Shown: positions 8,064-63,877 of the stretch, one piece after another
How positions within the stretch are numbered: the first letter of the stretch is position 1
How the letters are laid out: every line of letters starts with the position of its first letter
Translations under genes and position numbers: made by a program
NCBI GenBank assembly: GCA_964016885.1
Contig: OZ024740.1
Span: 62,496,001 to 62,560,000 of the forward strand
Source: Eledone cirrhosa
Lineage: Eukaryota
Direction of reading: 5' to 3'
Length of the DNA: 64,000 nucleotides
The notes under the pieces: model-generated
Database searches by the model: none
The model's input: the letters and a program-made list of their open reading frames with translations, nothing else
What the model was told of the DNA's origin: nothing

Positions 8064-8167
<104 letters not shown>

Positions 8168-8183
8168 TAAAATAACAGATTAA

Positions 8184-8234
8184 AGTTTAAGCAAAGAATC
8201 GCTGCTTTCACCCTTAACGGGATCTTCTGAAACT
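8184..8234 (-). ncRNA. Hammerhead-like fold (type I) with variant core CAGAAGA
   Basis: Minus strand AGTTT-CAGAAGA-tCCCgttaaGGGt-GAAA-GCAgcgattcttTGC-TT-AAACT; stems I, II and III all pair. Confidence 0.5.
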
Positions 8235-9159
8235 AACAAAGTCAATCTGTAAACGCAGAACTGGATATTTCAAAAAACGTTGCAACCGGAGGAAGACAGG
8301 AAGACGATACTTTGGTTCGTGGAAACGTTCGCTGGCGAAGTACGGGAAAAAACGAATAATACGTCATTAAATAGGAGCGGTGAAAAACATTTACGCGCAA
8401 AGACAGAACCACGTTTATGGTATAAAAGAGGTCGTAGACTAATGTTCTCTTAGGTGGTGCATAGAGACGTTCTCTGGCAATGAACGAAAAAACGAAGATA
8501 ATACGTCATATGTGGAGCGTGGAGAACAATAGCACGCAAAGACAAAACCACGTAAATGGTATAGCAGAAGTTGTAGACTAAAATTCTAACTAGGAGACCA
8601 AATGAATCTCCGCTACAGAGTTAAGAACAAAGTAAATAAATACAATACAGAAGTAATAAATAAATACATACACGCAAACAAAAACGTACATACACAAGCA
8701 TACGCAAAACCTTACCATAGGTATACAAAACCACGCACATATAAATATGTGTGTGTGTGTATGCGTGTATACAAATAAATAAATAATTATATAAACGTAT
8801 ATAAATAAATAAATACGTATATAACCAGCGCACACACATACCTACATATAAATACACGAATGTTCGGAGACGTAAGTCAACTAAAACAAGAAGTACACAT
8901 ATACACACACCCACCATACGTACGAACCTACATAATCACACAGACGCAAAAACTCCCGTATACACATAGCCAAACCCTATGTACCAGAATATATAAAAAA
9001 TTATACGCCATAGCAATCAAATATACGTACGAGAAGGTATATGTACCTTCACAAAACATACGGGTAGTATATACTTACCTATGCAAATAAGTAAAGGAAT
9101 AAACAAAACATATACTTAGCTCCCACATCAAGACGTAAAATATCCACGTATAGATCGTA

Positions 9160-11270
9160 CTATCCGTTAGGGTATAACGTGGGGCTGTAATACAGGAAAG
9201 TTTTGTGCAATTTATGTTTACAAGCCGAAATTGCCTCAGATTTTTTGTTTAAGATGTGGTCTGCGGCGTAGAGTATTTCCAGGGCCTCAGCGGCGCAGAG
9301 GTCACATGGTCTTTTATTTCCGTTATACGATCTAGCCCTAGCTAGGATCTCCCAGTGTAACTTATATTGGGTGTGGTTGTCTTTTAGACTCCAGATATAA
9401 GCTGAAAGTGACGTCATATTCCTTCTTAGAGGGTAACGAAAAGAATGGGTATGCATGTAAAGACACTGCTTGAAACTATTGGCGGTTAACCCTATGTAAG
9501 CCCTACGGGACGTGGGTGTTACAACCTTACATTTGTAGACAATGTTACTAGAGAGGCATTTCCCAGATAGGGGGCAATCAGCCCGATTCCTACAATTACA
9601 GTTAGTACTAACTACAGGGTTGCACGTGTTCCTACGGCTAGGTAGTTTAGCTAAATTTGAAGCTGTGATGTTATGTGCAAGGTTAGGAGTCGTAGAGTAA
9701 GAAATTTTAATAGTATTTCTATTAAAAATGTTACTATATTTATGTGTAGGGGGAAAATGCTTCGTAATAAGGGAAAGAAAGATCTTAGCTCATGGTGTGG
9801 CCACCTCCATATTATATGGTGGATTATACCAACAAATGCGACGGGATCTATTTCTTCTAGGTCTATTTTCGTACTCTGTATATGCTACCTTATCGACAAA
9901 TCCACTTCGAGCAAGAGCTTCATTGTAATAAGTGGAATGGTCGTTGAAAATACGCTCGTTGGTGGAAAGACGGGAAAGCCTCAACGAAACGTTTCTTACC
10001 AGGTTCTTGGTTATGCTGGCAGGATGGTTGGAATGCTTACTTATGTAATTAAGCGTATCATTCGGCTTTCTATACGGGTAATACAACCCATTCAATAAAT
10101 TGAGGGTAACGTCAAGGTAATTAACGACCGAGAGATTGGCCTCAACCTGTATAGAGAGGTTGAAGCCTTTAAAGAAGGCTGTGAGTTCTTTTCTGAACCT
10201 GTCGCAAGCACGAGGTCCGCACTTAGTCATGGTCAAAAGACCATCGTCACGGTACAAACCACCGCCCGCGTTGGGGAATTCGTCCTTGATAGAGAAAAGA
10301 AGGAAAAGGCCAATAAGATCACTAACCTCCGCAGAGTCACTGGCGCCTATACTCACGTCGAATGGGGTACTATTGGATTTTTTTATCCAAATAGAGTCGT
10401 CGAAATTAATCACCGACTTTCGGGCATTGAGGATGACATCAACTTCGAAATCCTTAACCACTGTGAGTGTTTTAGCGAAATTTATAGCTCTAAGGAGAAG
10501 TGGTAAAGTGATGGAGGAGTAGTAATTGTTGATGTCGAATTGGATAACACGGCAATGTTCCTTGTTACATATGCCGTTGAACCAATCAATCACCGCGAAA
10601 GAATTGTTCCAGTGCAAGAGGGGCCAAACTTCTAATTTCAGGTATAATTCTATCAAGAATCGTTCTACTAAGTCTACCTAAATCGGACTTCGTAGGGTTA
10701 ATAAGCCGAATAGAGGGGTTGTTCGGAAAATTGGATTTGTGATCCTTCAGGGTAAAGTGGGGAGAAATAGGGTCCAGAGGTTCGGTTCGGTCCAGGATGT
10801 TGAGATCAGATGTGATTTTAAACCCAGCATCGTTGATTTCATTGATGACGCACCGATTAGTTTTACGGTAATCCTTAGTTACAGCATTATGTAGTAGTTG
10901 ATGGTAAGTACTGCGTTCCACTTGATATAGGTTGCCAGTTTTGTCGGAATGGACGTGCACGGCGTTAGAATCCTTAATAGAACGAATTCTATTCTTCAGG
11001 TCTGGCTGGGAGGAATTGCTCCTATTCCGAAATTTGATACTCCGAATGAGTTCCAAGACATCATTTTCGAAGGGTAGCAATGCTGGGTTCCACGGGGGGT
11101 TATTATAGGTTTTAAATCCAAATTTATCCTGTTTGTTGTCTGCTTTTCGCGGATTATCGAAATAAAAGGCACGCCAACGCAACCTTTTAATGAACGCGTC
11201 TGTTTTCTGTATCAGGAGTTTTAGGTATGTTTTCTTGCTTGGTACGGGTATGTTCTTTGTAGAAATATTC
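9160..11270 (-). pseudogene. Penelope-like RT / GIY-YIG endonuclease ORF with one frameshift (about 10620) and one in-frame TGA (9790-9792)
   Basis: Motifs SDKTGNLY, TLKDHK...RLINPTKSDLG, FDINNYYSSI, YRDDGL, NYLDVTLNL, SNHP, WYNPPY. My translation past the TGA continues in frame: KHFPP...CNCRNRADCPLSGKC...IVYKC...YIGLT...CDLC...CKH. Confidence 0.9.
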
Positions 11271-13804
11271 AGATGTTGTTTCTGTGTATATATTACCTTA
11301 AATAGCAACCACACAGCCATTTTTATTCTCCATATATTTCATTAATGCACTGGGTATTTGCTGGCCTTGTGCCTAACGTAGAAACAATTATATATATATA
11401 TATATATATTAATGAAAAAGAACAAAGGAACTATTATGACATTATAACAAGTTTATTGCCGACAGCCGTTTCGTTCGACCATATAACATGTGATTGTAAG
11501 TTCACATGTAAGTTCACATATAACATGTGATTGTAAGGCATATAACATGTGATTGTAAGTTCATTATTTACATCAACGTTTCACTCAAGATTAGCAGTTT
11601 GAAATTGTGGTATACATCAGCAGCTCCGCTTGTATATTTGGGGTCTATATTCTAAGGGGGCTCTTTTATATTAGTTGTCGGAGTTGTAAAAGGGATGGGT
11701 TATGGGGAGTTAAGAGAATTTGAAAAGGGCCTAAGAGTCAGGGAATGAAGGTTAAAAATTAGATAATTTATAATTTACGCATTAAAAGTAAAGGACTTGG
11801 GGCCTCGTACAAGCACCTTAAAAAATCCCTCAATAAGTGCATAAAGCTTATAAGCCCCAATAAACATAACAAACCAGAAGAGATTAAGAGACTGAAAAAA
11901 TAAAAAAATAAAAAAATAAAAATATAAAGTTTCCTAAAAAATTCCTTCGAGAGAAAAAAAATTTTTTCGAAAGAAAAAAATTTTCTTCCCCAGAGATCAC
12001 GTTAAGAAATTTCCCGTTAAAAAATTTCAGAAAATTTACGAAGTTTTGATAATCCCTACTAAGTTGAAAGAAACTAATCAATTAAAGGTTAATTCAAAAA
12101 GCCTTCAAAAAATCCCCCAGAAAAGGCCCCTTTAATATTTTTAATAAGAACCTCTCCCGAGAGACCCTTCGAAGATTTTAGAGAGCCTTTAAGGATATAT
12201 ATAAACGAATTGAGGAAAATTATGAATTAAAAGTTAAAAATTACGGGATTTGGGATATTCGAGGAATTTTCAAAGGGCTGCTTCAACAGATAGAACTTAG
12301 GTATAATAGATAACATAATTTAAGTAATTTAAGTAATTTAAGTAATTTAATTAGGGAGCAATTCAAAGAGCTTATCAAGTTGGGCAAGATTAAAGAAAAT
12401 GATAAGTAAGAAAATACATAAGCAAAAAGACAATAATTATAAAATGTATTTTTAAGAAGGTATAAGGTAGCTTCAGTAATCTAATAATGTACTATCAAAA
12501 AATTATTATAACATTATTAATACAGGATTAACAAAGACATAATAATATATTCCTGCCTAATTAACAAATAATCAATAAACAATTAACAGTCAAGCAAAAT
12601 TAGCTCAGGGATAACCCGCGCTCGGATACTTTACACACATACAGCAACACATAGGATTAACAAAGACATAATGGTGTATTCCTGCCTAATTAACAAACAA
12701 TCAATAAACAATTGATAGTCAAGAAAATGTACTCAGGGATATCCCACGCACGGATACTTTACACACATACAGCAAGATGAACAATACAGGTGACCTTGTG
12801 GGTGCGATATCCATTGTGCGTATGTAGTCATCTGCATAGCTCCAGGCACAGTTGGTCTTGTTTAAAAGTTCAGAGTTCACGAATCAACTGGGATTCACTA
12901 TCAGCTGTGTGGACTCTCTGGGAAATGTACCTGTGGATCAAATAGCTAGTGGTTGCTAGGTGTGGTCCGTTCGAACTTTTAGTTTCGGGGGTTGCACGCT
13001 TTTGCGATAGATCAGCCTGCCGGTTCTAAATCCAAGGTCTCGCTGCATAGGATGTATTGGTTTACATGCTATATTGGTAAAAAAACCAGTGTGGATTTAA
13101 CTGGGGTGGTATATTGCGTCTCTCGCTAATATCACCTCTTCTCACGAACTCCAAGCACACACGCGACTGGTCAAATGCGAAGTGCTGTCCCCTCTTTGTT
13201 TATTGTAGGGGTCGGTTCCAGCTTAGATGGTGGTCGTGTTATCCATATTCCGTCAGCCATGCATATTCAAGATCAGGGTATATATTTGCGGGTATGGTCC
13301 GGCGTCTACGCTATCCAAAGGGTCTCTCTTGTGGTATTTTCAAGTTCGCATGTCATCTCCCGGTTAAGACTGCGCATGCTTCGGTGAATCTCATGCATGG
13401 AATCTTGGGGTATCATATTACACGGGGTGACTAGCAGAAAATATATATTCCATGCTATCGCGCACGCGCTGGCCTGTGGCTTCGACCGTGTCCAGTCTCG
13501 GGTAGTAGCCGACAGCAAGTAGACCAGCTAGACTCACCCCTGCTCAAGGGGCACAACCCCTAACTTATCGAGTGATCAGACATCAAGGGAGTCAACTCTC
13601 CAAGCCCATTAAGTCAACCGTGGTAATATACAAAAAATCCCTATTAATAAAGAACTAACTCAAAAAGAACCACTAATAATAAAGAAGAACTAACTCAAAG
13701 GAAGTGAATGGGGGAGAATGGGGAGGGGCATCTATTTGGGCGTCGCATATTTGGTAGGTCAGGCGTGATCATCGCGATTCACATACGACCTACCATACAT
13801 CTTG

Positions 13805-13841
<37 letters not shown>

Positions 13842-13900
13842 TAAAATAACAGATTAAAGATTAAGCAAAGAATCGGTGCTTTATTATTATTATTACTATA

Positions 13901-14000
13901 GCCGAGGTTGACTTTGCATTTCATCCTTACGGGGTCGATAAAATAAAGTACCAGTAATGCACTGGGTAATTGCTGGCCTTGTGCCTAAAGTAGAAACAAT
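13901..14000 (+). mobile_element. SINE (Meta-domain-like) 3' half
   Basis: Family consensus; its 3' end variant (GTGCCTA) also occurs at 11343-11390. Confidence 0.8.
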
Positions 14001-14034
14001 TATTACTATATATATATATATATATATATATACA

Positions 14035-14089
14035 TGAGATTCTACAGGACTAGAACTGTTTCATTCTTTAGAAATCATCAGGAATCTCA
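14035..14089 (-). ncRNA. Type I hammerhead ribozyme (inverted copy)
   Basis: Reverse complement of 14090-14143 with intact CTGATGA/GAAA core and GTA cleavage triplet. Confidence 0.7.
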
Positions 14090-14143
14090 GGGATTCCTGA
14101 TGATTTCTAAAGAATGAAACAGTTCTAGTCCTGTAGAATCTCA
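14090..14143 (+). ncRNA. Type I hammerhead ribozyme
   Basis: GGGATTC-CTGATGA-tTTCtaaaGAAt-GAAA-CAGttctagtcCTG-TA-GAATCTC: stem I 7 bp, short stem II, stem III ACAG/CTGT. Confidence 0.7.
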
Positions 14144-14224
14144 TCTATATTAAAACTTTTATACTCTGCAATGTATTGTGTACCTTACTTACTGTGGTTA
14201 CCTCCAACTCAACCCGGAATAACG

Positions 14225-14255
<31 letters not shown>

Positions 14256-14302
14256 ACATAGGGACCCCTGATATTGAGTGACGGAGTATTCATTAATCAT
14301 AT

Positions 14303-15061
14303 AATTGTTTCTACTCTTGGCACAAGGCCAGCAATTACCCAGTGCATTACTGGTACTTTATTTTATCGACCCCGTAAGGATGAAAGGCAAAGTTAACCTC
14401 GGCGGGATTTGAACTCAGAATGGCAAGGGCCGTAACTCTATGCATCAAAGTATGGCGTCCAACCCTCTACCGATACTGCCAATTCACCGCCCTTAATCAT
14501 ATAATTGTTTCTACTTTTGGCACAAGGCCATCAATTATCCCAGTGCATTACTGGTACTTTATTTTATCGACCTCGTAAGGATGAAAGGCAAAGTCAACCT
14601 CGGCGGGATTTGAACTCAGATCGTAAAGGGACGTAACTATGCTGGAAAGCATGGTGTCTGACCCTCCACCGATACTGCCAATCCATATAATGGTAGTTAA
14701 TTACCATTATTTGATATATATATATATATAATAAGTTGACGGAACTAGTATAGGTATCACTGCTAGGACCGGTTGCACCTCAGTAATGTATTCACAAACA
14801 TCACTGCTCAGCAGTTTGCTGAAAACATGATGAGACAGTATTCTGTTCGTAAAGCAACGGGTCATGTACTATTAGTAATACTTGTTTCTACTTTTGGCAT
14901 TAGGCCAGCAATTACTCCAGTGCATTACTGGTACTTTATTTTATCGACCCCGTAAGGATGAAAGGCAAAGTTAACCTCGGCGGGATTTGAACTCAGACCA
15001 TAAAGGGCCGTAACTCTATGCTGCAAAGCATGGTGTCCGGCTCTACCGATAGTGCCAATCC
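14303..15061 (-). mobile_element. Three SINE copies (Meta-domain-like): 14303-14491, 14502-14685, 14882-15061
   Basis: Full-length family consensus on the minus strand. Confidence 0.85.
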
Positions 15062-16322: not shown

Positions 16323-16663
16323 GCGGGGACATAGAAATAATCGGGCTGGATGCCCGATCGCGCAGTTAAACCACTGGGAGTGAAGAACCCCTAGCCCATG
16401 TCAGGGTATTCTTCTAGGAGAAGGCATCTCAGGAAACTGGGTTAACTCCGATATAAAACCTGCGGCTCAGTAGTTACCGATGATGTTGATCTTTTCTTCT
16501 TTTCGGGTTATAGCTACTGTCGCTCAGAGAGTGGGATTGGTTCAGTGCACAGTCTTTCCTCACTTTAAAAATATTCGTCACGCACAGGCATTGCACGAGT
16601 GCATTAATAATTATTAATAGTGTAGTATTATTATTATTATTATTATTGTTATTACTATTATTA

Positions 16664-16703
<40 letters not shown>

Positions 16704-19700
16704 CCCCAATTCAATGATGTTCCAGAACAATGTAAACGAGATAATTGCCAATTTGGGTTCTGGAACAAAAAAGATCATTGGCAATAAGGGCAGGGGCCCC
16801 AAGTTATCACAACCTGGGCCCGCCCGTCATCGTGCCATTGTAATAGAGCCAAACAGGGCATTTAGTCTTGGCTGCTGGAACGTACGGACGCTGCTTGACA
16901 GGGATTCTTTGGAGCGTCCTGAACGAAGGACCGCTCTTGTTGCGAAGGAGCTTCGACGTTACGATCTTGACATCGTGGCTTTGTCTGAGACGAGGTTAGC
17001 TGGAGATGGTCATCTTACGGAATTTTGTGGAGAATATACATTCTTCTGGAAAGGAAGAGATGAAGGAACCAGAAGAGAGGCTGGGGTGGGATTTGCTGTT
17101 AAGACTGTACTGGTGAATAAATTGGAAGAATTCCCAGTGGGGATTAGTGAGCGTCTTATGTCCATGAGAGTTCCGCTGGACAAGGGAAGATATGCTACCC
17201 TGGTGAGTGTGTATGCTCCAACTATGAATTCTGTCGATGAAGAAAAACTGTCCTTTTACCATGCCTTGAAAGGTGTTTTAAGAAATATCCCTCAGGCAGA
17301 CAAAGTCATCGTGCTTGGTGACTTTAATGCTAGAGTGGGTAGGGATTTTAACACATGGAATGTAATCGGAAGGCATGGGGTGGGAAAGTGTAACAGCAAT
17401 GGTATGCTCTTGCTGCAGATGTGTGAGGAGCTGGATCTGTGTGTTACCAACACCATGTTCCAACAAAAGAACAAATTCAAGACCACATGGATGCATCCTG
17501 CATCTAAGGAATGGCATCTTTTGGACTACGTCCTAGTCAGGATGCGTGACAGACAGGATGTGCGGTGTGTTCGTGTTCTTCGTGGAGCTGAGTGCTGGAC
17601 GGACCACCGCCTGGTACGCGCAAAAGTGAATCTAATCACCAAACGTAAAATCCGGGCTCCTGGTGTTACCCTGCCCAAAAGATTGAATGCTGCTCGTCTT
17701 AAGGATAAAAATGTGAAGAGGACATTGGAAGAAGAGATGCAGGCTGCAGATCTTGGTGAGGATTGGCCGACCCTTAAAAAGTCGGTTTATGATGTAGGCA
17801 GACGTGTTCTGGGATTGGTGCAGAGAAAACATCAGGACTGGTTTAATGAGAAAGATGTGCATATAGATGACTTGTTGGCTGATAAGAGGCGCGCTCTGTC
17901 ACGCTACTTGACGGCAAGACCACAGGAGAGGAATACGTTGCATGAGGAGCTCAGGGATGTAAAATCACGTGTTAGGCGGAGTCTTTCTCAGATGAAGGAT
18001 CAGTGGTGGAGTGAGAAGGCTGGTGAGATACAAACTGCGTCTGATTGCAATAACACAAAGCTGTTGTACAGTCTCTTGCGTGAGGTTTATGGACCGTCTT
18101 CTTCTCTGGTGACACCGATTCGCAGCAGGGATGGCAAAGAACTTCTTCGTGACTCACAGGGAATTCTACGAAGGTGGCGGGAGCACTTTGATGATCTTTT
18201 GAATCAGCCGTCTGTCGTCAGTGAAGATTTCCTCAATCTCATTCCGGAAAGTCCTGTGAAAGTAGCTCTCGCAGAGCCTCCGACACTTGTGGAGGTTGCA
18301 GTGGCTATTTCGAAGCTGAACAGTGGAAGATCTCCAGGTATGGATGGCATACATGCTGAGCTCCTACAATATGGTGGTGAGAGACTCCTGCAACATCTTC
18401 ACTCTCTGTTTGGAGGGATATGGGCTAATGAATCCGTGCCTGAGGACTGGAGAGATGCAGTAATGGTGGTCTTGTACAAGGGAAAGGGTAACAGGAATGA
18501 TTGTGGGAACTACAGAGGTATATCATTGCTTTCTGTCGTGGGGAAAGTTTTATGTAGGGTGCTTCTGGACCGTCTGCTGACACACATTGCAGATTGTGTC
18601 CTTCCTGAAAGTCAATCTGGTTTTCGTGTTGGACGCGGCACTACTGATATGATCTTCTCAGCTAGACAGCTCCAGGAGAAGTGCATTGAACAGGGCTTGG
18701 ATCTGTATCAGGTTTTTGTCGATCTGACAAAGGCTTTCGATACTGTCAACAGAGATGCATTATGGAAGGTTCTCCAGAAACTTGGTTGCCCTGATAAGTT
18801 CCTTGCTTTAGTTAGGTCTTTCCATGACGACATGAAGGCTTGGGTTAATGTCGGAGGTAACATGTCGGAGCCTATCTCAGTAAAAAATGGAGTGAAACAG
18901 GGGGATATTCCAGCACCGACCCTGTTTGCCATATACTTTGCAATGGTTTTCTGTATTGCATTCAGGAATTGCGAGCATGGTGTTTACATCCGATATCGAA
19001 CCTCAGGCAGCATATTTAACATCAGGCGCTTTGCTGCGAAGACAAAAGTATTTACATCAGTCATAAGAGACCTCTTGTATGCAGATGATTGCGATCTTGT
19101 AGCGCACACAGAGAGTGATATGCAGCACATTTTGAATGTATTTTCTGACGCTTGCACTGCCCTGGGTTTGACTGTCAGTCTCAAGAAAACCGTCGTCATG
19201 TACCAACCTGCACCTGGTAGGCAGTACACTGAACCAAACATCTATGTGTATGGCAGACGACTTGGAGTGGTTGATCAGTTTGTCTACCTGGGAAGCACTG
19301 TCAATCGATACGGCAACCTTGACAGTGAAATCTCACTTAGGATTAGGAAAGCAAGTGATGCTTTCGGAAAGCTAGAAAGGCGACTCTGGGGTCGGCGAGA
19401 CATATGCAGGAGGACAAAGGTAAAGGTGTACAGGGCATGTGTACTCTCTTGTCTTCTTTATGCCTGCGAGACCTGGGTCACATATCGACGCCACCTTAAG
19501 CAATTGGAGCGTTTCCATCAGATGTGTCTCAGACGGATACATGGCGTTCGCTGGAGGGACCACATCAGTGATGTCGAGATTTTGGAAAGCTCTATGTGTG
19601 ACAGTATAGAAGCTCTTGTGCTTAAGCAGCGACTCCGTTGGAGTGGTCACCTTGCCAGGATGAAGGATTCTAGAATACCAAAACAACTCTTCTATGGAGA

Positions 19701-20267
19701 GTTGGTTAAAGGAAAACGACCGCCACATAAACCAAAAAAGAGGTATAAGGATTCCTTGAAGGCCTCTCTGAAAGACGCTAACATCTCTGCTGATACATGG
19801 GAAAATATTGCTGCTGATCGTAATAAATGGAGAAAGACTGTATATGAGGGAAAAGTTGCCTTTGAGGCATCTCGAATCGCACACGAGAAAGTAAAGCGGG
19901 ACGTGAGGAAGGGTATTGCTGTTGCACTTCCAGACGGCGAGGGTCCTCCTATGTTTCTGACATGCAGCGTCTGTGCGAGACTCTGCCTAAGCAAAGCTGG
20001 ACTCGAAAGTCATCTTCGCAGTCATAAAGTAAGACCAGTGGTTGACTACCAGGCTGCTGTTGGAGATGCTACTCATCATGCTTGCCAAACATGTGGTAGA
20101 GAATGTAAATCAGCAGGAGGACTCAAGCGACATGCAAAAGTACACGAACTCCAACCACAGCCGACTATTCCCAGTAAATGTTTTGGTTGCCGACTCTGTG
20201 CAAGACATTTTGGATCATTGGCTGGGCTAAAAAGCCACATTCGATCGCAGCACTGTTAGTTGCTATC

Positions 20268-20512: not shown

Positions 20513-20574
20513 TATATATATATATATATATACGATATATTAACAAATGGAAACTATATTTCTAAAACCATATT

Positions 20575-20639
20575 TATTTCATTATACATATTTCAAGGAG
20601 ACCAAGTTAAATTATGGTGCGCTTTCATCAGATAAAATA
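20575..20639 (-). ncRNA. Type I hammerhead ribozyme (left arm of palindrome)
   Basis: Reverse complement of 20794-20858. Confidence 0.6.
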
Positions 20640-20793
20640 TAATATAGACCAGTTTTATAAATAAATATTGACATACCCTTAAAGAATGCGACCATTTCTG
20701 CTGGAAGCTCCCGGACTATCGGGAGCTTCCAGCAGAAATGGTTGCATTCTTTAAGGGTATGTCAATATTTATTTATAAAACTGGTCTATATTA

Positions 20794-20858
20794 TATTTTA
20801 TCTGATGAAAGCGCACCATAATTTAACTTGGTCTCCTTGAAATATGTATAATGAAATA
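20794..20858 (+). ncRNA. Type I hammerhead ribozyme, Penelope-type
   Basis: TATTTTAT-CTGATGA-AAGcgcACCA...TGGTctcCTT-GAAA-TATGTA-TA-ATGAAATA; stem I 8 bp, near-palindromic minimal stem III. Confidence 0.6.
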
Positions 20859-20910
20859 AATATGGTTTTAGAAATATAGTTTCCATTTGTTAATATATCG
20901 TATATATATA

Positions 20911-21181: not shown

Positions 21182-21254
21182 GCCGAAATAGCTCAGTTGG
21201 GAGAGCGATAGACTGAAGATCTAAAGATCCATGGTTCAATCCCGGGTCTCGGCA
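21182..21254 (+). pseudogene. tRNA-Phe(GAA), probable pseudogene
   Basis: 73-nt match to the conserved metazoan tRNA-Phe with about 5 substitutions, three of which break the anticodon, T and acceptor stems; no downstream oligo-T terminator. Confidence 0.85.
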
Positions 21255-27375: not shown

Positions 27376-28510
27376 ACCAATCCACCAAAGGAGTACTAGC
27401 ATATTGTTACACTGTTCGTAACTTGTAAAAAATGTTAAACATATATTCAATGTGTATACAAAACGAATAACATAGTAGTTTTGCTGTGTTACACAACATA
27501 ATATCAACATCCTCTATAACTGGTTCTACATCTTTTCTGAAATATGATTAACAAAAAAATGGAAATAATGTAATTATTTCACTAACATTAACACAAATGG
27601 AACTGTTAAAATATTCGCTTTGCATACATCTCGGACAGGTCCGTCTGACAGCACTTCCGCGTCTGTAGAGTTTGTCTCGAAACGTCAGTGTCCCCGGTAG
27701 TATTGCCTGGCCAGGGATTTCTGGAAATTGACCATAGTCAACTGGTGCTTAACTATTCTGCTAATCCGGTCGCTGTAGACTTTATGCGCCAGGACCGACA
27801 CTTAGTAACATATATTTCCCTATTCACTTTTGAATTACCCATTCTTTAACTGATATATATATATAGTTTATACAAATCTACCTTAATTCTATAAACTATC
27901 CAATATACACAACTATCTTAGTTTTATGTATCAGCCAAATGCCCACCTGGTGTACACAGAATAAAACATACATAAGTGTCACAACCCCATTTTATCTCTA
28001 TACCCCTTAATATCAATTTCGTTTTATTTTGTTTTAGTTTCGCATTCAAAGCATTACCTAAATTCACTCCACAAATTGAAATACACATACTCTTAATTGT
28101 GGCATAAGTTTTTTTTCAGATTAAACTGTTCTCTCAAATTACACTCACCTGCCTCTGCCGAAAAACATTGTTCGTACATTACTCGGTAGAAAATCATCTC
28201 TTGTTTTAAACATTACTTGTACTTAAAAACGAATTTTAAGGAATATAACTTTAGAAAACAGCATTTTTCTATATTCTCTATATCAGTAATTCAGATATGA
28301 CAATTTAAATGTAAACACTATTTGTCATCTCTGTAAATATTTTATATGAGATTTTGTACATATTTTATGAGATTTTCTTGTTAAATATCTCACCCAGACA
28401 TTTAGTTTCATATAATCTTTCTATAATAACTATTATAACTTGTCTATTATAACTTGTGCTTAAATATTTATTTTGTTTTACAATTTCCGAACAGCATAGT
28501 GTTTATTTTA

Positions 28511-29015
28511 TCCCGCCGAGGTTAACTTTTCCTTTCATCCTTACGGGGTCGATAAAATAAAGTACCAGTAATGTACTGGTTAATTGCTGGCCTTGTGCCA
28601 AAGGTAGAAACAATTATTTTAAGGGGGATTGGCAGTATCAGTAGAAGGTCGGACGCCATGCTTTGCAACATAGAGTTACGCCCCTTTATAGTGTGAGTTC
28701 AAATCGCGCCGAGGTTAACTTTGCCTTTCATCCTTACGAGGTCGATAGAATAAAGTACCAGTAATACACTGGGGTAATTGCTGGCCTTGTGCCAAAAGTA
28801 GAAACAATTATTTTAATGTCAAAAGGGCGCTGGATTGGCAGTATCGGTAGAGGGCCAGACGCCATGTTTTGTAGCATAGAGTTATGGCCCTTTACGATCT
28901 GAGTTCAAATGTGGCCGAGGTTAACTTTGCCTTTCATCCTTACGGGGTCGATAAAATAAAGTAGCAGTAATGCACTGGTTAATTGCTGGCCTTGTGCCAA
29001 AACTAGAAACAATTA
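28511..29015 (+). mobile_element. Three tandem SINE copies
   Basis: Family consensus three times, first copy 5'-truncated. Confidence 0.85.
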
Positions 29016-29533
29016 TTTTAATGTCAAAACGCTGTTTTAATATTCTTATTTCTGTTGTGTCTACCCAACAAAACATTTACGTATCATCAAATAACAAATT
29101 TAAGTATTTCCGATACTCTGAACATGTAATTTATGTACTAAATGAATGTTTTCAGGCAAAACATTGACTCTTGATGTTTTTCACAAGTAATATCCACACA
29201 AGTAAATGTATGCTTATCTTCTATTAAACAGCTTCTTTGCAAATTAAGCAGAATTCTTCTGATATCACACTTTTCCAATTTATCGAATGTTTTATTGGGA
29301 TCAATTGTATGAAAGCTTACACGAGGTCTATAAACACCTAGACAGCATATATATCTTTGCTTATGAAATTTGCAATTTCTTTGGAGGCAAAGAGGTTGGT
29401 CTCTTGTTGAATATATACTGACAACCTGGAAAATACTAATGATAATGTTTTTACTTTCATGAAATTACATAACCAGACATTTCAGAATGCTGAGGGGGAC
29501 TTCATCAGAACTATTCTTATATTTGTGCACGCA

Positions 29534-29668
<135 letters not shown>

Positions 29669-30410
29669 GATAACTAGAAATTGATTAACATATATATAAA
29701 CATGAATAATCACAGGAGATAATTTTTACAAGTGTGTAACCACACATAGCTAGGTAGGTAACTAAATAAAGTTGACTAGAACTTCAAAAATAGATACCTT
29801 ATAATATGATTAATCTTCCCTGTATATATTCCATTAAAGAAATATATTTCACCAATTAATCAGATGGTAAACCACGGAAGTGGATATTTTGGATTTTTAA
29901 CAAGGAAGAAAATTTCCAGCAATCCGTGTTTACACTACAAGTTCAAATCTGCAACTGGCTATTACCACGTGTTGTATTTACAATAAATACACACATAATA
30001 GTAGCTTCGTCCCAGTGGCCTGAATAGGGTTATCGACAACTAGAAACAGCAGTCGAGTCCTTTCAACAGAGTTAGCTCTACAATATATTTATTGTAAATA
30101 CAACACGTGGTAATAGCCAGTTGCAGGTTTAAACTTGTAGTGTAAACAAGGATTGCTGGAAATTTTCTTCCTTGTTGAAAATCCAAAATATCCACTTCCG
30201 TGGTTTACCATCAGATTAATTGGTGAAATATATTTCTTTAATGGAATATATACAGGGAAGATTAATCATATTATAAGGTATCTATTTTTAAAGTTCTAGT
30301 CAACTTTATTTAGTTACCTACCTAGCTATGTGTGGTTACACACTTGTAAAAATTATCTCCTGTGATTATTCATGTTTATATGTTTATATATATGTTAATC
30401 ATTTTCTAGT

Positions 30411-30551
<141 letters not shown>

Positions 30552-31070
30552 TGTGTGCACAAATATAAGAATAGTTCTGATGAAGTCCCCCTCAGCATTC
30601 TGAAATGTCTGGTTATGTAATTTCATGAAAGTAAAAACATTATCATTAGTATTTTCCAGGTTGTCAGTATATATTCAACAAGAGACCAACCTCTTTGCCT
30701 CCAAAGAAATTGCAAATTTCATAAGCAAAGATATATATGCTGTCTAGGTGTTTATAGACCTCGTGTAAGCTTTCATACAATTGATCCCAATAAAACATTC
30801 GATAAATTGGAAAAGTGTGATATCAGAAGAATTCTGCTTAATTTGCAAAGAAGCTGTTTAATAGAAGATAAGCATACATTTACTTGTGTGGATATTACTT
30901 GTGAAAAACATCAAGAGTCAGTGTTTTGCCTGAAAACATTCATTTAGTACATAAATTACATGTTCAGAGTATCGGAAATACTTAAATTTGTTATTTGATG
31001 ATACGTAAATGTTTTGTTGGGTAGACACAACAGAAATAAGAATATTAAAAAAGCGTTTTGACATTAAAAT

Positions 31071-31588
31071 AATTGTTTCTAGTTTTGGCACAAGGCCAGC
31101 AATTAACCAGTGCATTACTGGTACTTTATTCTATCGACCTCGTAAGGATGAAAGGCAAAGTTAACCTCGGCCACATTTGAACTCAGATCGTAAAGGGCCA
31201 TAACTCTATGCTACAAAACATGGCGTCTGGCCCTCTACCGATACTGCCAATCCAGCGCCCTTTTGACATTAAAATATTTGTTTCTACTATTGGCACAAGG
31301 CCAGCTATTACCTCAGTACATTACTGGTACTTTATTTTATCGACCCCGTAAGGATGAAAGGCAAAGTTAACCTCGGCCACATTTGAACTCAGATCGTAAA
31401 GGGCCATAACTCTATGCTACAAAATATGGCGTCTGACCCTCTACCGATAGTGTCAATCCAGCGCCCTTTTGACATTAAAATAATTGTTTCTACTTTTGGC
31501 ACAAGGCCAGCAATTACCCCAGTACATTACTGGTACTTTATTTTATCGACCCCGTAAGGATGAAAGGAAAAGTTAACCTCAGCGGGAT
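31071..31588 (-). mobile_element. Three tandem SINE copies (mirror of 28511-29015)
   Basis: Family consensus three times on the minus strand. Confidence 0.85.
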
Positions 31589-33125
31589 AAAATAAACACT
31601 ATGCTGTTCTGAAATTGTAAAACAAAATAAATATTTAAGCACAAGTTATAATAGACAAGTTATAATAGTTATTATAGAAAGATTATATGAAACTAAATGT
31701 CTGGGTGAGATATTAAACAAGAAAATCTCATAAAATATGTACAAAATCTCATATAAAATATTTACAGAGATGACAAATAGTGTTTACATTTGATGATTTT
31801 CTACCGAGTAATGTACGAACAATGTTTTTCGGCAGAGGCAGGTGAGTGTAATTTGAGAGAACAGTTTAATCTGAAAAAAAACTTATGCCACAATTAAGAG
31901 TATGTGTATTTCAATTTGTGGAGTGAATTTAGGTAATGCTTTGAATGCGAAACTAAATCAAAATAAAACGAAATTGATATTAAGGGGTATAAAGATAAAA
32001 TGGGGTTGTGACACTTATGTATGTTTTATTCTGTGTACACCAGGTGGGCATTTGGCTGATACATAAAGCTAAGATAGTTGTGTATATTGGATAGTTTATA
32101 GAATTAAGGTAGATTTGTATAAACTATATATATATATCAGTTAAAGAATGGGTAATTCAAAAGTGAATAGGGAAATATATGTTACTAAGTGTCGGTCCTG
32201 GCGCATAAAGTCTACAGCGACCGGATTAGCAGAATAGTTAAGCACCAGTTGACTATGGTCAATTTCCAGAAATCCCTGGCCAGGCAATACTACCGGAGAC
32301 ACTGACGTTTCGAGACAAACTCTACAGACGCGGAAGTGCTGTCAGACGGACCTGTCCGAGATGTATGCAAAGCGAAGATGTATGCAAAGCGAATATTTTA
32401 ACAGTTCCATTTGTGTTATTGTTAGTGAAATAATTACATTATTTCCATTTTTTTGTTAATCATATTTCAGAAAAGATGTAGAACCAGTTATAGAGGATGT
32501 TGATATTATGTTGTGTAACACAGCAAAACTACTATGTTATTCGTTTTGTATACACATTGAATATATGTTTAACATTTTTTACAAGTTACGAACGTATGTA
32601 TCTTTCAGATAGAAAAATCCATCAATATTTGCATAGGTCATGTATTGATACTTCGATAAAATTTAAAATCATGGTGGATCATTTATTCAGAGATTTCTGG
32701 AAGTCGCAGTTAAATCCAAATAAAAGTTAAATACATAAAAAAAAAATCACCACCAAATACTAATAAACAGAGAACCGAAGTTTAATACATTTTAGGTACA
32801 TTTTTCATTGGTAAAAAAATCCCATTTCACTGTATTTTTTCGGTTTGACTGCCCATTAGTTAAAGTGAAAGCAATAATTTCTTCACGAACCTGTTGTGGT
32901 AAACAGAAGCCAAGTGACTTACATATATACAATATTTTACTACAAACTGTGGTAATAATATTTCTTCACATAAAAGAAGAAATCAAGAAATTGCAGACTT
33001 GGAGTTTTTGTTTAGGAATGACTCAGTTGTGTTCTTCTTTATATATATTACCCTCTTTTTAATTTTTTTCCTTCCTTTAACCCCCCCCCCCCCTTTTAAT
33101 ATCTTTCCACCACTCCCCCTCACAG

Positions 33126-47014: not shown

Positions 47015-47448
47015 TTCGGTTTCCTAGTTAGAATTTTAGTCTACGACTTCAGTTATACCATTTACGTGGTTTTGTCTTTGCGTGCAATTGTTCTCTCCGC
47101 TCCACATATGACGTATTATCTTCGTGTTTTCCGTTCATTGCCAGAGAACGTCTCTATAAACCACCTAATAGAACATTAGTCTACGACCTCTTTTATACCA
47201 TAAACGTGGATTTGTCTTTGCATGTAATTGTTTTTCACTGCTCCTATTAATGACGTATTATATTCATTTTTTCCCGCCTGGGAACGTTTCCACGAACCAA
47301 AGTATTGTCTTTCGTCTTCCTCCGGTTGCAACGTTTTTTGAAATATTCACCTCTGCGTTCACAGATTGACTTTGTTAGTTTCAGAAGATCCCGTTAAGGG
47401 TGAAAGCAGCGATTCTTTGCTTAAACTTTAATCTGTTATTTTAATAAA
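47015..47448 (+). mobile_element. Solo Penelope terminal repeat, same family as 8163-8600, with hammerhead-like fold at 47377-47427
   Basis: Reverse complement of 8163-8600 including the internal ~150-bp duplication; ends AATAAA(TA)n. Confidence 0.85.
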
Positions 47449-47460
47449 TATATATATATA

Positions 47461-47560
47461 TATTATCTGATGAAAGCGCACCAAGGTTGGCTTGGTTTCC
47501 CTTGAAATATAATAAAATAAATATGGTTTTATAAATATAGTTTCCATTTATTTAATATCA
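47461..47560 (+). mobile_element. Short hammerhead-bearing repeat, same family as the 20533-20900 arms
   Basis: TTATCTGATGAAAGCGCACCA...TGGTTTCCCTTGAAATATAATAAAATAAATATGGTTTT between (TA)n tracts. Confidence 0.7.
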
Positions 47561-48838
<1,278 letters not shown>

Positions 48839-49790: not shown

Positions 49791-50920
49791 TCATTCACCT
49801 ACATAGCGTTACAGAGGTTCTGTAAGATAGGATTTTTATATCGTACATTAGGCACCTTCTACTGGTGCTTGAGATATATAATGTTCATTGTTTAAACCCT
49901 AATGTACATGATTTATGTAATCTTACGTTAAATTGAACATGTTGCATATTACAGGCCATTTCGGATGTCTCTTGGAAAGAGCATCGAACAAAATGAAGAC
50001 TGTACAGCAATTTGTTTTCAATTAGTGATGTAATTAGAAGTAATCAAATCCGCTTTGCTGAATGGCTAAGCTCTCAATTGTGACATACTCCAATGGACAC
50101 CCCGAGATGGCTATACATCTTACATAAACATCTGAAAAGTCTGTCAGATTCCCACAGGAAACACTTCAATTGAATATAGTTTCTGTTTAAATTTTCATAC
50201 CGTGGCTTATAAACTGTAGTTATACCCACATTAAATTTAACAGATTTTCTAATATACGGTGAATTGGGCATACATATTTTTCCTCACACACACAGACACA
50301 CGAACATACATACATACATGCACGCACAAACGTACACACACATATTCATATATGTAATTATACAATTGGATAAGAGATTTAGGAAATTAACAAAAATGAA
50401 TGAAATCACACACGAAACCATTCATCAGCTATCGTCTAGATCCTTACGAATTCGACACCTAAATCGGCACCTAATTCGGAAACTAGCAATGCTGACAGCA
50501 TGACTATACATAAATATAACAATATCGGTTTCAACACACGATTTCACATCAAGAATCTTGCAAAATAAATACATGAAATCCTATTCATTTTATATAAAAA
50601 TGACTTCTATTGGACTAGAACTGTTTCATTTGTATGAAATATAATTATGTGTGTGCATTTGTGTGTGCATGTGTATGACAATTCAGATTACCATAAAATC
50701 TATAGCTATAAAACCTTTAATATAGCACAAACAACTGGTATTTTATAAAGTTCAATATATGATTACTGCACTTACTCCCGAACGCACTCTAAAATATCTA
50801 CATTAGACGTATTCCGTTTACAAGTCCGTAATAATATATTTACGACTTTGATCATAAAAGCTAAATTAAGACAATATAATCTATTAAATGAATTCATTCA
50901 GACCATGAATGCAACATCAT

Positions 50921-62231: not shown

Positions 62232-62896
62232 CAGTATTTTCCGTTGTGTTGTAATATAAATATTACACACAGTAGATTATCAGCTCACGTAGAGTTTGCT
62301 CGACCTAAGTTCGTCCGCAATACTACTCCAGAGAAAACCCAACGTACACAACTGTAACTGCACCTATCCTGACAACTGCCCCCTCGGCAATAACTGCCTG
62401 GAAAAAAATATTATTTATAAGTGTACCATTAAATCCGGAGGCAACGAGTGGTATTACGTGGGATCAACGGCAACATCGTTTAAATCTCGATTGTATAGGC
62501 ATTCTTACTCAATAAAACACCAGAGCCAAAGAAATGTAACAACTTTAGCAGAAAAAGCTTGGACGCTCAGGGATAGCGATCAAAAGTTTACCCTAAAATG
62601 GGAGAAATTAGCTAAAACCCAAAGCTTTTCCAGGAGCCAAAATTTCTGCAAATTGTGTAATCTTGAGATTTATTACATAATCACACACAAGAAGAAACTG
62701 CTGAATAACAGAATTGAACGAACATTATTCTGCCGTCACAGAACTAAAACCCTTTTTTCCCACTACAAGCCGAATATTACATAAAAGAGGGACATCCCCC
62801 AACTATATAAACCTTAAGCTAGTTAGAAAAATATAAAAACAATCTCTTCTCAACATATATTAATAACCTTAAATTACCACACTAATAATGGAAAGA

Positions 62897-62954
62897 TATG
62901 CTGATGAGAATAGGTGCAAATATGCGATAATGAATGTGTCTAAAAACGTCCATA
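62897..62954 (+). ncRNA. Decayed hammerhead ribozyme
   Basis: TATG-CTGATGA-...-AAAA-CG-TC-CATA; stem I pairs but G12 is replaced by A. Confidence 0.35.
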
Positions 62955-63050
62955 AGTATGAATATATATGTGAAAATGTATATAAATAAGTAAATATATA
63001 TATATGTTTGATGTGTATAGTTAGATGTAAGTGTATTCATGTATTAAAGT

Positions 63051-63130
<80 letters not shown>

Positions 63131-63686
63131 ATATGTGTATATAGATGTGTATGTATGTGTATGTGTGTACACATGGACTAGAGTATGTATGTATATATGT
63201 GTGTGTCTATACGTGTGTATATAAAGATAAGTTGAGTATGAAAATGTATACACATGAGCGCGTATGTATGTACATGAATACATGTGTGTATATATATGTG
63301 TATGCATGTGTATATATATGTAAGTATGAATATGTGAATTGTGAGTATATGTATTTTGTAGAGGTGTGCAAATATATTTGTGTGTGAATGCGTGGGTGAA
63401 AGGATACGTACACTTGAAAGAAAAATTTAAGTCTGAATGTTAATTAAGTGCAAACACAAAACCAACCACGCATATCTTTACTATCTCTAATCCTTCTATA
63501 GATTTAGAAAAATAACCAATAATATATTCTATAAAAAATGTCAAAACAACAGATGGGAATCTAATTACTCACTGCCACCAAGAATTCTCACTGCTATCGA
63601 AAAACCACTCCTTCAACTATTCTTCTAACAACTTCACCCCTCCCTCCTAATATTCTCTATAAAAACTAAATAGGTCCTCAGTAATA

Positions 63687-63806
63687 TTATTCTGATGAAA
63701 TGACAGTAAATAATAACATTGAAATATTGAATGTCTGCATAACTAAAAGTTTGTAGATAGCAGCTGTTTTAGGTTATGTAACTGTTATAGAAACACGTGT
63801 CAATAA
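63687..63806 (+). ncRNA. Type I hammerhead ribozyme with very long stem II
   Basis: TTATT-CTGATGA-[aATGACAGT...ACTGTTATa, about 91 nt]-GAAA-CACGTG-TC-AATAA; palindromic stem III ACACGTGT, GUC triplet. Confidence 0.65.
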
Positions 63807-63877
63807 ATTCCTTTCAACTAAACTGTATCCATTCAAATCTTTCTATATATATATATATATATATATTGGTAAACGGA

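What the first reader, a model, noticed from the sequence alone, without database searches (positions are those of the whole stretch)
14034..14144. Minimal palindrome made of two hammerhead ribozymes, one on each strand
Seen: a 111-bp near-perfect inverted repeat consisting of nothing but two complete type I hammerheads head to head, within a ~190-bp insert between (TA)n tracts; a decayed relative lies at about 50601-50640. Known: Penelope-like elements form inverted terminal repeats and carry hammerheads. Inference: a very small ambisense ribozyme unit. A transcript from either direction holds one ribozyme and its antisense, so folding could switch between self-cleavage and a dsRNA hairpin.
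Basis: partly seen in the sequence, partly recalled or inferred. Interest (0 to 1): 0.75.

Follow-up and report, generated by a model that had tools for sequence, protein, structure and literature searches.

The report
Penelope retrotransposon start-site hammerhead palindrome
This palindrome is real but is one of thousands of stub-sized, head-to-head insertions of a Penelope-like jumping gene in this genome; it was likely made when two reverse transcriptions ran off the start of the element's RNA, and it is unlikely to be a ribozyme switch.

Summary
The 111-bp palindrome and both type I hammerhead motifs are confirmed. It is two copies of the first ~55 nt of a Hydra-clade Penelope-like element's predicted transcript, joined head to head in a (TA)n tract; one arm carries 80 nt more. 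The parent element (RT + GIY-YIG ORF) was found. 1,069 such palindromes keep both stem I strands, and 3,103 turn inside stem I (sister subfamilies included), against 52 just upstream and 91 around the cleavage site. The turning point sits 30 nt below a TATA box, at an initiator match. An untemplated G precedes +1 in 19 of 21 arms. 91 of 97 sampled copies pair one long end with one short end, and either arm may keep more 5' sequence (25 vs 20). That favours two separate primings over single snap-back. The switch idea is not supported: antisense comes first in either direction, the ribozyme fold costs ~68 kcal/mol, and the core is not protected after insertion. No RNA or cleavage data. The scan already found this pattern on other DNA of this genome.

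The parts
14007..14032 (.). Left (TA)13 target microsatellite
   Evidence: Hydra elements insert in (TA)n (PMC8557442)
14034..14087 (-). Short arm: element positions +1 to about +54, with a complete hammerhead motif (predicted cut 14043/14042). The outer end lies at the family's short end (..CTCAT|TA)
14088..14091 (.). Junction: four bases not in the parent sequence. 14088 is the extra G next to +1 of the short arm (cap-derived or stem-I-templated, inferred). The same junction occurs at L004 and L146
14092..14144 (+). Long arm, hammerhead part (+2 onward): stem I GAUUC/GAAUC, CUGAUGA, U.U, 3-bp stem II, GAA, 4-bp stem III with 8-nt loop, GUA/ at 14135/14136
14145..14224 (+). Rest of the long arm ('tail'), ending at the family's fixed long end ..GGAATAACG. 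In the parent this is 5' leader that continues 47 nt to the ATG
14225..14251 (.). Right (TA)13 target microsatellite
50588..50630 (-). Sister-subfamily single arm, truncated in stem II, lacking CUGAUGA

Best explanation
The palindrome is a dead, stub-sized insertion of a Hydra-clade Penelope-like retrotransposon, likely made when two reverse transcriptions, primed on the two sides of a cut in a (TA)n tract, both ran to the predicted 5' end of the element's RNA and were joined head to head. Shown: the sequence is the element's terminal repeat and leader; the outer ends are two fixed family sites, one per arm; the junctions pile up at the 5' edge of stem I. Inferred: the repeat's CCAAT/TATA/initiator promoter starts the RNA at the first base of stem I, so the hammerhead lies right at the cap. 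RT starts internally at about +55-66 and at about +135 (as shown in vitro for the lizard element PAc), so copying an RNA that begins at +1 gives only 55-135 nt per arm. The two cDNA ends are joined with 0-2 nt of microhomology or a few untemplated bases. The hammerhead is likely under selection in the active element but would be locked in a 54-bp hairpin in any read-through transcript of this copy.
For: Parent: L062 carries the same leader running into a ~714-aa ORF (one frameshift) with RWR, DKT, GLYRDDGL, CxCx5C, CxxC and CxH motifs, the Hydra features in PMC8557442 section 11. L035 and L042 show promoter + hammerhead + tail + ORF in one piece. Hot spot: 1,069 + 3,103 palindromes at or in stem I vs 52 upstream and 91 in stem III or at the cut site. 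Single arms on (TA)n start there too: 246 vs 14 minus-strand matches. TATA-to-core spacing is 36 nt in 74 of the 84 arms with a TATA-like box upstream and 35-36 in the sister-subfamily promoters; CCAGATT matches YYANWYY (motif recalled). An untemplated G precedes +1 in 19 of 21 arms. Long+short ends in 91 of 97 minimal palindromes and in 10 of 12 longer head-to-head pairs (read). The long arm keeps more 5' sequence in 25, the short arm in 20, equal in 19 of 64 (p=0.55). In 6 of the 17 junctions that differ by 3 nt or more, the short arm holds bases the long arm lacks, which a copy of a single first strand cannot do. PAc cuts and extends both strands, has two internal RT starts, is predicted to be a dimer and uses uncleaved RNA (PMC11167929).
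Against: No RNA data, so start site and cap are predictions. The extra G equals the base that cDNA self-pairing on stem I would add, and some junctions carry 5 nt of that sequence (L197, L199), so the G is not a clean cap signal. D. virilis Penelope has a TATA-less internal promoter (PMC2377424), so a TATA promoter is not universal in the class. R2 also adds untemplated G and T (PMC13000458). The sample is the first listed copies on contig 1, chosen by junction patterns, and the count patterns differ in length. Post-insertion deletions could account for some asymmetric junctions. Raw RAD reads barely cover the centre (3-7 reads per run at 14090-14091; one opposite-strand joint of 4 reads near +1).
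Confidence: 0.78

Rival explanations
1. Single priming with snap-back: one cDNA from the long end reaches the RNA 5' end, folds on itself and is copied back until it is resolved at the TA-rich short end.
For: Self-priming was proposed for Penelope head-to-head palindromes (PMC3846280), and the one-sided tail was ascribed to endonuclease resolution (PMC8557442). It explains long+short pairing. Junctions such as CAGG-ATT-CCTG fit a 3-nt loop (L105, L190, L191).
Against: The mirror junction is as common (L106, L113, L129). The short arm is the longer at the 5' end in 20 of 45 unequal cases. 12 of 64 junctions have a 1-nt centre, too tight for a loop without added bases.
Confidence: 0.1
2. The hot spot is set by the ribozyme's stem I (cDNA end pairing with its own stem I complement and derailing RT) or by a splice acceptor at stem I, not by a transcription start.
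For: Junction bases sometimes continue the stem I 3' strand. The native upstream sequence resembles a splice acceptor, and the D. virilis intron ends at the 5' end of Helix I (PMC4209133).
Against: 88 of 128 arms stop at exactly +1 or +2, 30 nt below a TATA box whose spacing is kept across subfamilies. No constant upstream exon or leader appears in the junctions. Stem III, also a helix, is not a hot spot.
Confidence: 0.07
3. A selected ambisense ribozyme unit that switches between self-cleavage and dsRNA.
For: Both motifs are intact and identical here; thousands of copies exist; such hairpins could feed small-RNA pathways (inference).
Against: Antisense precedes sense in both directions. The hairpin is favoured by 67-70 kcal/mol. 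No promoter in the unit. No protection of the core between arms. Junctions are diverse, as expected if each copy arose independently rather than by spread of one master palindrome.
Confidence: 0.03
4. Fold-back artefact of library or assembly.
For: Few raw RAD reads cross the centre; this locus with its flanks was not seen in reads.
Against: The mirror stops at family-specific ends, long on one side and short on the other in 91 of 97, with unrelated flanks. Arms diverge with subfamily age (1.7% vs 8.0%). 15 contigs of run X1 carry a similar centre with one other base.
Confidence: 0.02

Closest known systems
Hydra clade of Penelope-like elements (Craig et al. 2021, PMC8557442; section 11, passages and supplementary Files S1/S2 read in part), e.g. 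Hydra-1_Obim, Penelope-9_HM, Penelope-13_HM
   Same: Short RT + C-terminal GIY-YIG ORF, RWK-like, DKT and CxCx5C motifs, (TA)n targets, hammerhead near the end with CUGAUGAU...UGAA (U.U at the base of stem II), inverted 5'-truncated copy, one-sided tail.
   Different: A distinct family: its hammerhead differs from Hydra-1_Obim's and the protein is similar by eye only. Stem III loop is 8 nt against 1-3 nt in the listed Hydra motifs. The tail is ~70-80 nt against 30-40. Thousands of insertions consist of terminal stubs only.
PAc (Poseidon of Anolis) in vitro mechanism (Frangieh et al. 2024, PMC11167929; parts 1-2 of 4 read)
   Same: Hammerhead at the repeat/ORF junction, two fixed internal ends that define the tail, AT-rich target, uncleaved RNA as the main template.
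   Different: Other clade. The parts read do not show formation of inverted copies or a start-site hot spot.
Head-to-head inverted pLTRs of Adineta vaga Penelope elements (PMC3846280, passages) and opposite-strand min-HHR pairs 100-700 bp apart in Schistosoma (PMC4209133, parts 1-2 of 4)
   Same: Palindromic junctions, TATA + initiator in the repeat, paired hammerheads on opposite strands.
   Different: Here the spacing is near zero and the copy number allows a test; the data favour two primings over the proposed self-priming.
Animal non-LTR retrozymes (bioRxiv 10.64898/2026.07.22.740005, part 1 of 5 read; PMC7229834, search listing only)
   Same: Non-coding type I hammerhead repeats derived from Penelope-like ends; this family also forms ~1.08-kb tandem arrays.
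   Different: This copy is inverted, not tandem, so it cannot release a monomer for circularisation.

Membership tests
Penelope-like element, Hydra clade | Single short ORF (<3 kb) with RT and C-terminal GIY-YIG | tested here: met
   L062:3936-6081, one frameshift; motifs read by eye. Library support is weak: Pfam GIY-YIG E=0.022 only; no meaningful PDB match.
Penelope-like element, Hydra clade | RWK, DKT, CxCx5C linker, CxxC and CxH around E/N | tested here: met
   RWR, SDKT, CNCLNKEAC, CDLC, CMH
Penelope-like element, Hydra clade | Phylogenetic placement with Hydra RTs | not tested
   Compared by eye with the printed Hydra-1_Obim protein; no tree built
Penelope-like element, Hydra clade | (TA)n insertion, terminal repeat with hammerhead, inverted truncated copy, one-sided tail | tested here: met
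Type I hammerhead ribozyme | Core CUGANGA / GAAA / UH with three stems | tested here: met
   Two stem I pairs change on both sides among 12 rows, from few lineages; subfamily variation sits in loop II (sample biased by search patterns)
Type I hammerhead ribozyme | G10.1-C11.1 pair of canonical motifs | tested here: not met
   U.U instead, as in many published Hydra motifs; so a Hydra-type variant, not a canonical motif
Type I hammerhead ribozyme | Self-cleavage at GUA | not testable with these tools
   Model puts the active fold 4.5 kcal/mol above the single-arm ensemble, ignoring tertiary contacts. Insertions that start at the cut site are rare
Non-LTR retrozyme | At least two tandem units with complete hammerheads | tested here: not met
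   This locus is inverted; other loci of the family are tandem (L066, L067)
Ambisense ribozyme RNA (viroid-like) | Distinct ribozymes able to fold in both polarities of a replicating circle | tested here: not met
   The two motifs are one sequence mirrored and sequester each other; no circle tested

The most novel reading that the evidence does not exclude
These thousands of stubs are a fossil record showing that Penelope-like elements integrate by priming both ends of one break from two different internal start sites and joining the cDNAs at the RNA's capped end, with the hammerhead placed exactly at the cap yet mostly uncut on integrating RNAs. That would replace self-priming as the origin of the class's inverted repeats and point to a decapping or quality-control role for the ribozyme.
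Probability: 0.45. Interest if true: 0.6.

Novelty: new member of a known kind. Interest (0 to 1): 0.4.

Why it matters
As an object it is ordinary transposon debris. As a population it bears on an open question named in PMC8557442: how Penelope-like elements build inverted repeats, and what their hammerheads do. The long+short rule, the symmetric junctions and the scarcity of cut-site starts give sharp predictions for an existing in vitro system. Several thousand perfect hairpins may also be a source of dsRNA or genome fragility (inference, untested).

Tried and rejected
Rfam scan: no hammerhead hit at E<=1, not informative for this variant. Run search: no RNA holder listed. RAD reads could not confirm this locus's junction; loss of hairpins in amplified libraries is a recalled explanation, not tested. 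PDB sequence search gave only noise; the protein atlas gave no answer. A first alignment script returned nothing through a pattern error (redone). A hot spot at the cleavage site was sought and not found; one ORF copy, L062, does begin 1 nt after it. A spliced-leader or short-exon origin of the junction was rejected for lack of a constant leader. Paper searches for a two-primer or start-site account of Penelope inverted repeats listed none by title or abstract start; subscription papers, including older Penelope work, are not covered, and bioRxiv supplements were not seen. Sequence look-up in earlier scan notes found nothing.

Full report
Observation. The inverted repeat is as described: 53 perfect base pairs around a 5-nt centre, between two (TA)13 tracts, with 80 further bases on the right. 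Each strand meets a type I hammerhead descriptor, with the predicted cut at 14135/14136 on +. The relative at 50588-50630 is a single arm lacking the first half of the core. The window holds transposon ORFs and repeats; I saw no host gene among ORFs of 130 aa or more.

Family. The window lies on contig 1 of a 3.0-Gb genome. The 31-mer core has 7,717 exact matches. Of the 40 best copies scored, 25 showed an inverted partner arm in that listing. 5,079 arms carry the native upstream sequence, some in ~1.08-kb tandem arrays and some in head-to-head pairs kilobases apart. In L035 and L042 the promoter region, hammerhead and tail run on into an ORF, and L062 holds that ORF whole apart from one frameshift. 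Its motifs are those that define the Hydra clade of Penelope-like elements, and it resembles the printed Hydra-1_Obim protein by eye. The U.U at the base of stem II is common in published Hydra hammerheads. Stem I changes on both sides at two pairs between subfamilies. The host is probably an octopus; this rests on that likeness and on an unchecked scan note.

Why so small. The right end (..AATAACG) and the short ends near +55-66 are fixed across copies. In the parent they lie inside the 5' leader, 47 nt or more before the ATG, like the two internal RT start sites that define the tail of PAc. The inner ends pile up at the 5' edge of stem I: 1,069 palindromes keep both GATTC strands and 3,103 turn within stem I (roughly a third of the 49 fetched were this subfamily, the rest sister subfamilies). 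Only 52 turn in the ~15 positions upstream and 91 in stem III or at the cut site. Single arms lying directly on (TA)n show the same bias, 246 against 14 minus-strand matches. The native sequence has a CCAAT box, a TATA box and an initiator match that put +1 on the first base of stem I (consensus motifs recalled). An RNA that starts there and is copied from +55-66 or +135 gives exactly these stubs. An untemplated G precedes +1 in 19 of 21 arms. A cap would explain it, but so would self-pairing of the cDNA on stem I, and some junctions show the latter.

One priming or two. I fetched 97 minimal palindromes: the first 50 distinct places listed in each, less the window's own copy and two near duplicates. 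91 have one long and one short end, 1 has two long ends, and 5 scored as short+short (two of these are long arms with internal deletions). In the 64 long+short copies of this subfamily, the long arm keeps more native 5' sequence in 25, the short arm in 20, and 19 are equal. A snap-back copy cannot hold bases that its template strand lacks, and a short first strand cannot yield a tail. The symmetry therefore favours two primings, one per side of the break, in line with PAc cutting and extending both strands. It speaks against the self-priming proposed in PMC3846280. Later deletions could mimic part of this. Earlier AI notes on other DNA of this genome reached the same two-primer, start-site reading. 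I read them before running this test, and they are not independent evidence.

The switch idea. Head-to-head order means the antisense arm is transcribed first in either direction. Forcing the ribozyme fold costs 69.6 (+) and 67.2 (-) kcal/mol in the unit, against 4.5 for a single arm; the stem III sequence can also form a dimer duplex of -12.8 kcal/mol. Between arms of 88 palindromes, catalytic positions differ as often as others. So the copies look neutral once inserted, while the motif looks selected in the active element. Whether it cleaves is untested. The rarity of cut-site starts fits uncleaved RNA being the template, though cleaved RNA may simply be lost.

Reality in DNA. Raw RAD reads from three samples hold the family and both outer ends, but only 3-7 reads per run cover the centre, and this locus was not seen with its flanks. 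The long+short asymmetry, unrelated flanks and age-dependent arm divergence argue against a fold-back artefact.

Verdict. A real feature, a new family of a known clade, in a known kind of arrangement at its smallest size. The value lies in the mechanistic record. Interest 0.4.

Noticed in passing
window 8167-11338 (-) and 47252-47447 (+): Another Hydra-type element (about 51% protein identity, broken ORF). Both copies of its end read CAGAAGA where the hammerhead core CUGANGA is expected, so this may be a family-wide core variant.
   Followed up: partly
window 20533-20900: 368-bp palindrome in (TA)n, 98% arms, with a different hammerhead-like motif in each arm and a turning point about 80 nt upstream of the core; a single arm of that family sits at 47467.
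   Followed up: partly
window 47607-48720: 1.0-kb palindrome between (TA)n tracts, with one arm extended; probably another Penelope-like head-to-head insertion, family not identified.
   Followed up: no
window 27414-32593: 5.2-kb nested inverted repeat (arms 85-100% alike) that contains microsatellites, short repeats and a CTGATGA...GAAA motif in each arm (29508, 30577).
   Followed up: no
window 62293-63840: 3' piece of a further Hydra-type ORF followed by a terminal repeat with a TATA box about 34 nt before a hammerhead-like core at 63692.
   Followed up: no
window 13838-13880: About 40-nt end stub of the 8167 family directly left of the finding; TA tracts here collect several insertions.
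   Followed up: no
window 13880-14005, 14293-14682 and elsewhere: Abundant ~130-200-bp short repeat, facing outward on both sides of the finding and in tandem at 14293, 28432 and 31056.
   Followed up: no
window 16621-20256 (+): Uninterrupted 1,212-codon reading frame that looks like a LINE endonuclease-RT protein (not scanned); an identical-looking 3' end occurs in L021.
   Followed up: no
L066-L067 (G000:C1:83678500-83698300): Retrozyme-like tandem array of at least 13 units of ~1.08 kb of this family's terminal repeat, attached to an ORF-bearing copy.
   Followed up: partly
window 21182-21254 (+): tRNA-like gene (Rfam 52 bits, GAA anticodon) right after a long TA tract.
   Followed up: no
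joints; L022:1072-1180: A minor class of fold-backs at the stem II loop gives palindromes without CUGAUGA; not counted genome-wide.
   Followed up: no
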